Shown here: positions 15,955 to 16,556 of the stretch, one piece after another
How positions within the stretch are numbered: the first letter of the stretch is position 1
Layout of the letters: every line of letters starts with the position of its first letter
Source: Octopus sinensis
Taxonomy: Eukaryota
DNA: 23,745 nt
Assembly: GCF_006345805.1 (NCBI RefSeq)
Contig: NW_021836505.1
Location: forward strand, 1 to 23,745
Direction: 5' to 3'
Program-made: the position numbers and the translations under genes
The notes under the pieces: generated by a model
The model's database searches: none
What the model was told of the DNA's origin: nothing
What the model saw: only the letters and a program-made list of their open reading frames with translations

Positions 15955-16239
15955 TATTATTACCAGAGGTCTAGCACTGTATTTCTATGTGAATAATATA
16001 CAGTCCAATGACTAATTCGTTTTTGTGCGAGACCACTGGTAATAATAATTTCTTATTACCCTATTGTTATTTATTATGTTTAAATATTCTCTGATAAATT
16101 TGTTCGAAATTTTTACCGGCATCCTCTCTATCACCGGGTATAATCTGCGTCTGCGCAGTGGTCTGAAAAGTTAGAATATACAAGTAGTTAGTTTTACATG
16201 TGGATCTGGCTGTGTTGTGTATTTGAAATCGAAAGGCTG

Positions 16240-16308
16240 TCCCACTGATGAAACTGGCCTTCAGCAAATATTTTTTTGCTGGAAATAGTTAGAAACCATG
16301 GTCTGGGA
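16240..16308 (+). ncRNA. Type I hammerhead ribozyme
   Basis: tccca-CTGATGA-aactg.gcc.ttcagcaaa-tatttt-tttgctgga.aa.tagtt-a-GAAA-ccatgGTC-tggga. Stem I is tccca/tggga, stem II is long, stem III is the palindrome accatggt, and predicted cleavage is after C16303. Confidence 0.88.
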
Positions 16309-16321
16309 AATAATTGAGATG

Positions 16322-16399
16322 GTAAGCGTTTTTAATTTTCATTCCTTTCGAAAATTTATCCTTATTTTGTGGTTTTGAGTTTTCTGCTGCTCTTTCTAG
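16322..16399 (+). other. Candidate 78-nt spliceosomal intron
   Basis: ATG (16319-16321) then gtaagc ... ttttctgctgctctttctag|cag; alternative acceptor at 16402. Confidence 0.55.
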
Positions 16400-16523
16400 C
16401 AGAAGGCTTTCCTATTTAGAAGCCTCTTATTGTATTTCTATGTGAATAATATATAGTCAAATGACTAATTCGTTTTTGTGCTAGGCCACTGGTAATAATA
16501 ATTTCTTATTACCCTATTGTTAT

Positions 16524-16556
<33 letters not shown>

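What the first reader, a model, noticed from the sequence alone, without database searches (positions are those of the whole stretch)
15955..16524. ORF-less, ribozyme-bearing, terminally redundant element: candidate cephalopod retrozyme or non-autonomous Penelope unit
Seen: one 453-bp unit plus a 94-bp repeat of its start (4 mismatches), with a hammerhead near the middle and no RT coding sequence. Known: Penelope-like elements carry hammerheads in partially tandem pseudo-LTRs, and animal non-LTR retrozymes are short hammerhead-containing repeats that yield circular RNAs. Inference: a permuted monomer with terminal redundancy is what reverse transcription slightly more than once around a 453-nt circle, or from a tandem transcript, would leave. 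The simpler alternative is a 5'-truncated ordinary Penelope copy.
Basis: partly seen in the sequence, partly recalled or inferred. Interest (0 to 1): 0.75.

Follow-up and report, generated by a model that had tools for sequence, protein, structure and literature searches.

The report
Penelope-hitchhiking hammerhead retrozyme, dead-end copy
This is one of at least a hundred scattered copies of a 453-base, protein-free repeat carrying a hammerhead (predicted self-cutting RNA) motif, a known kind of genomic parasite, and the shape of its insertions shows it was likely pasted in by the enzyme of a Penelope-type jumping gene.

Summary
Observation confirmed: a 453-nt unit, a 94-nt repeat with 4 mismatches, and a type I hammerhead (16240-16308) with compensatory changes across related families. 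All 102 mapped insertions are built from the same ORF-less, head-to-tail unit; none continues upstream into an RT gene, so a truncated ordinary Penelope is unlikely. The copies are not freely permuted: 163 of 179 arms end at two fixed 3' sites, mostly in (TA)n; there are 60 head-to-head junctions, 44 pairing one end of each type. That is the Penelope 'tail' footprint. One family copy is fused, without a microsatellite between, to a young Neptune-like autonomous element, the best candidate mobiliser. The circle is unproven: long arms tend to stop at the second ribozyme cut (9 of 14), favouring a linear, ribozyme-trimmed template, while homogenised repeats and a closed contig of a sister family in putative RNA runs fit a circle. 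The kind is known (non-LTR retrozyme; Penelope link already proposed in print), and this scan noted similar elements on other DNA. New member of a known kind.

The parts
15955..15977 (-). 23-nt inverted arm (unit positions 48-70), joined head-to-head to the main arm; Penelope-type 5' inversion
   Evidence: 21 of 23 match to 16025-16047 on the other strand
15978..16430 (+). one full 453-nt ORF-less unit (start point is this copy's 5' truncation); 18 differences from the column majority of the family
16240..16308 (+). type I hammerhead motif, long stem II, palindromic short stem III (predicted to need a dimer), predicted cut after 16303; one base fewer at the foot of stem II than the older form (39 arms with 3 bases, 32 with 4)
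   Evidence: dimer duplex -12.6 kcal/mol
16322..16399 (+). 78-nt GT...AG stretch with donor- and acceptor-like ends conserved across related families; splicing not seen
   Evidence: conservation; no spliced form
16431..16524 (+). 94-nt repeat of the unit start: passes 3' site 1 (about 16435-16456) and ends at 3' site 2; the stretch between the two sites is the Penelope-type 'tail'
16527..16557 (.). (TA)n target microsatellite
   Evidence: 112 of 163 clustered arm ends lie next to (TA)n or (CT)n
15648..15947 (-). flank, not part of the element: broken C-terminal piece of a DDE_3 (Tc1-like) transposase repeat
   Evidence: 40 of 40 scored matches at 78-82% apart from itself; relatives L042 and L055 hit PF13358

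Best explanation
The stretch is a single-ribozyme copy of a dispersed, protein-free 453-nt repeat family with a hammerhead motif (a non-LTR retrozyme) that was likely inserted in trans by a Penelope-like (probably Neptune-type) reverse transcriptase-endonuclease. Shown: fixed unit, two fixed 3' end sites about 90 nt apart, variable 5' ends, head-to-head arms, (TA)n targets, no ORF. Inferred mechanism: the GIY-YIG domain nicks both strands of a (TA)n tract; reverse transcription starts inside a head-to-tail RNA at site 1 on one strand and site 2 on the other, runs upstream through the unit and its uncut ribozyme, and the two cDNAs are joined at their 5' ends. I commit to the template being mostly a linear multimer whose 5' end was made by ribozyme cleavage in the upstream unit (about 45%), ahead of a closed 453-nt circle (about 40%); both RNA forms may come from the few dimer-or-longer source copies. 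The young Neptune-like family seen at L232-L261 is the best candidate mobiliser (about 50%).
For: 102 distinct insertions from 126 loci, 179 arms; 163 end in two clusters (unit 445-32: 82; unit 85-112: 81) where 15% would be expected if uniform; 60 head-to-head junctions, 44 with one arm at each site; 112 of 163 ends next to (TA)n or (CT)n. This is the partial-tandem, inverted-arm, one-sided tail, (TA)n pattern described for PLEs (PMC8557442, passages) and explained by two internal RT start sites (PMC11167929, parts 1-2 of 4 read). No ORF link: tblastn of two local PLE ORFs over all 210 loci then held plus the window hit only L064/L111, L081, L178, L206 outside the GIY-YIG set, and 0 of 17 further family loci. 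Related ORF-less families at 64-82% identity keep the unit layout and the same 3' sites; 656 related hammerhead matches against 4 in the control. Composite insertions: at L064 a family arm ending at site 1 joins the 5'-truncated ORF of the young Neptune-like family with no microsatellite between, and no upstream ORF part lies on the other side; at L270 a related arm joins the 5' start of a full-length element of another PLE family. That young family also has two 3' ends, (TA)n and (CT)n junctions and a hammerhead-like motif before a GT...AG stretch. Linear template: 9 of 14 arms that reach unit 327-366 a second time end there (scan-corrected p 0.009; p 0.005 among the 25 arms longer than one unit).
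Against: No autonomous element with sequence similarity to the unit was found: a profile of 14 related units hit none of the PLEs' own 3' ends in 78 PLE loci; its hits were neighbouring retrozyme insertions. The composites are 1 case for this family and 1 for a relative, and could be later insertions at AT-rich PLE ends. Only 5 of 163 arms hold two cut sites, and no long array was seen (longest arm 1027 nt). The pile-up test assumes a constant stop rate and independent copies; samples were chosen by score or motif, and some ends there are set by the join to the inverted arm. Cleavage, RNA ends and circles were not measured. Contigs of four putative RNA runs cover the unit only in pieces, at 85-100% identity, with 5-23% running on into unlike sequence.
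Confidence: 0.85

Rival explanations
1. Same element and enzyme, but the template is a covalently closed 453-nt circular RNA copied slightly more than once.
For: Seamless 453 period in 36 of 179 arms. Repeats within one insertion differ less (4.8%, 206 of 4262 sites, 24 arms) than copies between insertions (6.8%), share 77 minority bases, 8 of them nearly private (about 0.4 expected by my hand estimate from those counts), and show polarised differences at only 2 positions: lineages seem to pass through one monomer. The 445-nt sister family gives a closed 483-nt contig (unit plus 30-nt overlap, depth 48, no loose ends) in run X1, and the unit junction in all 4 runs laid. Circles are shown for coral, mussel and axolotl retrozymes (PMC7229834, sections 13 and 17 read).
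Against: A circle has no end, so it does not explain the stop at the second cut site. A closed contig also arises from tandem transcripts or tandem DNA, and the runs are only guessed to be RNA. The circular fold is only moderately stable (z -2.3 against 60 shuffles). No such contig was seen for this family.
Confidence: 0.4
2. 5'-truncated remnant of an ordinary autonomous Penelope-like element: the unit is only its pseudo-LTR.
For: Every end feature is that of a PLE; ORF-bearing PLEs abound (147 of 150 scored GIY-YIG candidates, ORFs up to 781 aa with RVT_1 and GIY-YIG). Only three PLE families were examined in any depth.
Against: Upstream of a unit lies the same unit, never an ORF; 0 of 50 free 5' ends share a flank; no tblastn hit upstream of any family arm; families 65% alike keep the ORF-less period.
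Confidence: 0.06
3. Satellite-type repeat born from a pseudo-LTR and spread at the DNA level (unequal crossover or extrachromosomal DNA circles), as suggested for retrozyme arrays in 10.64898/2026.07.22.740005.
For: Tandem organisation; homogenised repeats within insertions; one locus is a segmental duplicate (L066/L067).
Against: Copies are dispersed over at least 20 large scaffolds, mostly under 1.5 units, with fixed 3' ends, inverted arms and (TA)n targets, which DNA-level amplification does not predict.
Confidence: 0.05
4. Mobilised by a LINE-type reverse transcriptase (SINE-like), with inversions from twin priming.
For: 5' truncation and inversions occur in LINE and SINE copies (recalled); a few short inverted pieces (L009, L086, L123) have inner-type ends.
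Against: Inverted arms end at the element's own 3' sites and face outwards, and the two ends use two alternative sites (44 of 60); no poly(A) or LINE-like 3' repeat; both composite insertions are with PLEs.
Confidence: 0.04

Closest known systems
Metazoan non-LTR retrozymes (Cervera and de la Pena 2020, PMC7229834; passages and sections 13, 17 read)
   Same: Type I hammerhead with short palindromic stem III in a low-GC, ORF-less, head-to-tail unit of a few hundred bases; coexists with PLEs.
   Different: 453 nt is at the top of the reported 150-450 range; mostly 0.3-1.5 units rather than arrays; circles and cleavage not shown here; the word 'inverted' does not occur in that paper, so the two-armed footprint is not described there.
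Vertebrate retrozymes as non-autonomous PLE sequences (Li, Clavereau, Pollet, bioRxiv 10.64898/2026.07.22.740005; parts 1-3 of 5 read; supplements closed)
   Same: Same conclusion on origin; monomers dispersed, few dimers.
   Different: They link retrozymes to pLTRs by sequence similarity and co-occurrence in 35 species with no mollusc; here no similar pLTR was found and the link rests on insertion ends and composite insertions. By their definition (two complete ribozymes in tandem) this copy is an inactive monomer.
EN+ Penelope-like elements, Neptune-type (PMC8557442 and PMC3846280, passages; PMC11167929 for Poseidon PAc)
   Same: Partial tandems, inverted 5'-truncated arm, one-sided tail from two RT start sites, (TA)n bias, hammerhead in the terminal repeat.
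   Different: No RT/GIY-YIG ORF; tail about 90 nt instead of 30-40; clade label for the local ORFs rests on a CxxxxCxxC linker read, no tree was built.
Drosophila virilis Penelope 5' region (PMC2377424, PMC4209133; passages)
   Same: A 75-nt intron next to the ribozyme in the terminal repeat; here a 78-nt GT...AG stretch 18 nt after the cut.
   Different: There the intron ends at the ribozyme's 5' side and is spliced; here it lies 3' of the ribozyme and no spliced form was seen.

Membership tests
Non-LTR retrozyme | Type I hammerhead with conserved core and covarying stems | tested here: met
   base of stem II is non-canonical (A.A, A.C, G.U, U.U or a bulge)
Non-LTR retrozyme | Short (about 150-450 nt, up to 972 in the 2026 survey), low-GC, non-coding unit in head-to-tail repeats | tested here: met
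   453 nt, GC about 0.34, longest frame 41/73 aa; 36 of 179 arms exceed one unit
Non-LTR retrozyme | At least two consecutive complete ribozymes (active copy) | tested here: not met
   this copy has one; 5 of 163 family arms span two cut sites
Non-LTR retrozyme | No LTR, PBS or PPT; not attached to an RT ORF | tested here: met
   no ORF link; PBS and PPT were not searched separately
Non-LTR retrozyme | Self-cleavage of the RNA | not testable with these tools
   only indirect: 5' ends pile up at the second cut site
Non-LTR retrozyme | Unit-length circular and linear RNA | tested here: inconclusive
   only contigs of runs guessed to be RNA; fragments for this family, closed contig for the sister family
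Penelope-like element (autonomous) | ORF with telomerase-like RT and GIY-YIG | tested here: not met
Penelope-like element (insertion footprint) | Partial tandem plus inverted 5'-truncated arm | tested here: met
   60 of 102 insertions have a head-to-head junction; this copy has a 23-nt arm
Penelope-like element (insertion footprint) | Tail present at one end only (two RT start sites) | tested here: met
   82 and 81 arm ends at two sites; 44 of 60 junctions pair one of each
Penelope-like element (insertion footprint) | Microsatellite or AT-rich target | tested here: met
   112 of 163; target-site duplications cannot be read in (TA)n
Non-autonomous derivative of a named PLE | Sequence similarity to the pseudo-LTR of an autonomous partner in the same genome | tested here: inconclusive
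   none in 78 PLE loci of about three families; other clades not sampled
Penelope-like element | Retained spliceosomal intron near the terminal repeat | tested here: inconclusive
   donor GT in 12 of 14 and acceptor-like YAG in most related units; 105 of 106 spanning matches have under 10 gaps; no spliced joint in two lays

The most novel reading that the evidence does not exclude
The insertions are a genomic record of how animal retrozymes move: a Neptune-type enzyme with no sequence kinship to the unit recognises it by layout alone (ribozyme, intron-like stretch, two start sites), can jump from its own RNA onto the retrozyme RNA within one integration, and copies a linear RNA whose 5' end was made by the hammerhead while the inner hammerhead stays uncut. 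That would be in vivo evidence for a ribozyme role in Penelope-type retrotransposition and would make the circle a side product, not the template.
Probability: 0.3. Interest if true: 0.65.

Novelty: new member of a known kind. Interest (0 to 1): 0.42.

Why it matters
Which enzyme moves animal retrozymes, and whether it copies a circle, is proposed but not shown in the papers read. This family gives end-level evidence for Penelope-type enzymes, names a candidate partner with a natural composite insertion, and yields opposite predictions for circular and linear templates that one RNA-end experiment can decide. The single copy in the window is an ordinary dead-end insertion; the value lies in the family. 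Six literature searches returned no description of cephalopod retrozymes or of the two-armed footprint in retrozymes; the library lacks most subscription journals and repeat databases, and unseen supplements may list such families.

Tried and rejected
Rfam: no hammerhead hit on the window or on 15650-16530; the long stem II and minimal stem III probably escape the models. The upstream 15648-15947 stretch was tested as a possible inverted ORF piece of the element and is an unrelated DDE_3-type repeat (the window's own 63-aa piece has no Pfam hit). Divergent ribozyme at L091: no PLE ORF in 9.4 kb. Twenty loci with other ribozyme variants (L191-L210): several do not form stem I and are chance matches; only L206 has PLE pieces, 3 kb away. 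A pattern for unit 422-449 matched only the window because of private changes. Splicing of the GT...AG stretch: no spliced junction in the loci held or in contigs. No RNA holder on record was listed by the run search; runs X1-X13 are guesses; depth along contigs was not used. That all 29 young-PLE loci have ORF upstream follows from the query and is not counted as evidence. Copy number is a rough estimate: 65 exact ribozyme matches at 14 of 35 recall gives about 160; 60 exact 3'-end matches at 16 of 80 recall gives about 300. No structure or complex prediction was run: the element encodes no protein.

Full report
Observation. The window holds 15978-16430 followed by a repeat of its first 94 bases with 4 mismatches; 453 is the only offset that scores. 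A type I hammerhead lies at 16240-16308 with the predicted cut after 16303. Rfam does not detect it and its free fold is unremarkable, but it has 65 exact matches in G000 against 0 for the control, and across 16 related units all five stem I pairs and 4 of 7 upper stem II pairs change on both sides. The first 23 bases of the finding are an inverted arm matching 16025-16047. Left of it lies a broken DDE_3-type transposase piece, right of it (TA)n. The unit codes for nothing.

The family. A DNA search gave 75 matches from 40 scored of 2482 candidates; two pattern searches added loci chosen by the ribozyme or by the 3' part. Of 126 loci, 102 were distinct insertions with 179 arms, median 4.1% from the column majority; I fetched 47 of the 60 3'-pattern places and 50 of the 65 ribozyme places. 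Every insertion consists of pieces of the same head-to-tail unit. Thirty-six arms exceed one unit, one exceeds two (1027 nt). Rough size: a few hundred insertions.

Ends. 163 of 179 arms end in two clusters, unit 445-32 and 85-112, against 15% expected; 112 of these lie next to (TA)n or (CT)n. Sixty insertions have two arms joined at their 5' ends, and in 44 of the 60 junctions one arm ends at each site. PMC8557442 (passages) describes this for PLEs: partial tandems, an inverted 5'-truncated copy, a tail at one end only, (TA)n bias. PMC11167929 (parts 1-2) shows that the tail is the stretch between two internal RT start sites and that both strands are nicked and extended. So the 3' ends are fixed and only the 5' ends vary; the 94-nt redundancy of the window's copy is where its main cDNA happened to stop.

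Not a truncated autonomous element. tblastn with two intact local PLE ORFs (RVT_1 just under cut-off, GIY-YIG over it) found no ORF upstream of any family arm: outside the GIY-YIG set only L064/L111, L081, L178 and L206 had hits among 210 loci and the window, and 0 of 17 further loci. None of 50 free 5' ends shares a flank with another. A looser pattern finds 656 related ribozymes (control 4; first 100 listed); those fetched include ORF-less families 64-82% alike over the unit, with the same 3' sites, among them a young 445-nt family whose copies are 98-99% alike. A long-lived, diversified ORF-less group fits non-autonomous spread.

Partner. No PLE with a similar terminal repeat was found in 78 PLE loci. 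Two composites point to PLE enzymes directly. At L064 a family arm ending at site 1 joins the 5'-truncated ORF of a young PLE family (96-98% alike) with no microsatellite between, and the whole is flanked by (TA)n. At L270 an arm of a related family joins the 5' start of a full-length element of another PLE family. At L257 and L233 related arrays face a PLE 3' end across a short (TA)n. A template jump within one integration is the simplest reading of the first two; later insertion at an AT-rich end is the alternative. The young PLE family has the same layout as the unit: a hammerhead-like motif, a GT...AG stretch, two 3' ends, and (CT)n junctions (6 family arms also end in (CT)n). Its Neptune label rests on a cysteine linker seen in the related ORF and on PMC8557442; no tree was built.

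Template. For a circle: repeats inside one insertion are closer than copies between insertions (4.8% against 6.8%) and share 77 minority bases, 8 nearly private; the sister family gives a closed unit-length contig at depth 48 in a putative RNA run and its unit junction in 4 of 4 runs. For this family the same kind of data gives only fragments. Contigs cannot tell a circle from a tandem transcript or from DNA. I put the linear, ribozyme-trimmed template slightly ahead; neither is shown.

Intron-like signal. A GT donor-like word 18 nt after the cut and a YAG 55-80 nt further on are kept across families, as in the D. virilis Penelope 5' region (PMC2377424, PMC4209133; passages). No spliced form was seen in genomic copies or contigs; the conservation may reflect structure or protein binding instead.

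Known or new. Metazoan non-LTR retrozymes and their suspected PLE mobiliser are in print (PMC7229834; 10.64898/2026.07.22.740005). My six searches found no cephalopod case and no account of the two-armed footprint in retrozymes. The scan's index holds 31 notes with the same words, 8 shown, none on this sequence; I read them after forming my view and they agree, which is not independent support. Verdict: real, new member of a known kind, interest 0.42.

Noticed in passing
L177:3209-4719, L178:2832-4837, L186 (445-nt sister family): Young family (copies 98-99% alike), often two or more units per arm; one closed unit-length contig without loose ends in putative RNA run X1, junction also in X2, X3, X7. 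Best candidate for a circular RNA test.
   Followed up: partly
L232-L261, 3' end (for example L235:1950-2130): Young autonomous PLE family whose hammerhead-like motif has U and A in place of the C3 and G8 core bases, with a 7-bp stem I; standard descriptors would miss it.
   Followed up: partly
L064:1663-2790 and L270:1480-2130: Retrozyme arms fused directly to PLE 5' ends, possible template jumps within one integration.
   Followed up: partly
L172:174-3877, L171, L173: Abundant intact two-ORF PLE: a 479-aa upstream frame overlapping a 781-aa RT plus GIY-YIG frame; about 1 kb 3' region with repeated CCAAT- and CRE-like words (labels recalled); no canonical hammerhead found in it by my scan.
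   Followed up: partly
L257:2180-3609 (-): At least three near-identical units of about 480 nt of another hammerhead family with a very long stem II and a weak stem III, facing a PLE 3' end across (TA)n.
   Followed up: no
window 15648-15947 (-): Broken Tc1-like transposase C-terminus, family about 80% alike, cut off at the element's inverted arm.
   Followed up: yes
window 9805-10041 (-): 78-aa frame that looks like a mariner transposase C-terminus (recalled motif); no Pfam hit at E 0.01.
   Followed up: partly
window 1795-2097, 11897-12269, 17303-17708: Several copies of a common short repeat (84-92% alike), some in tandem; also frequent in flanks of the fetched loci.
   Followed up: no
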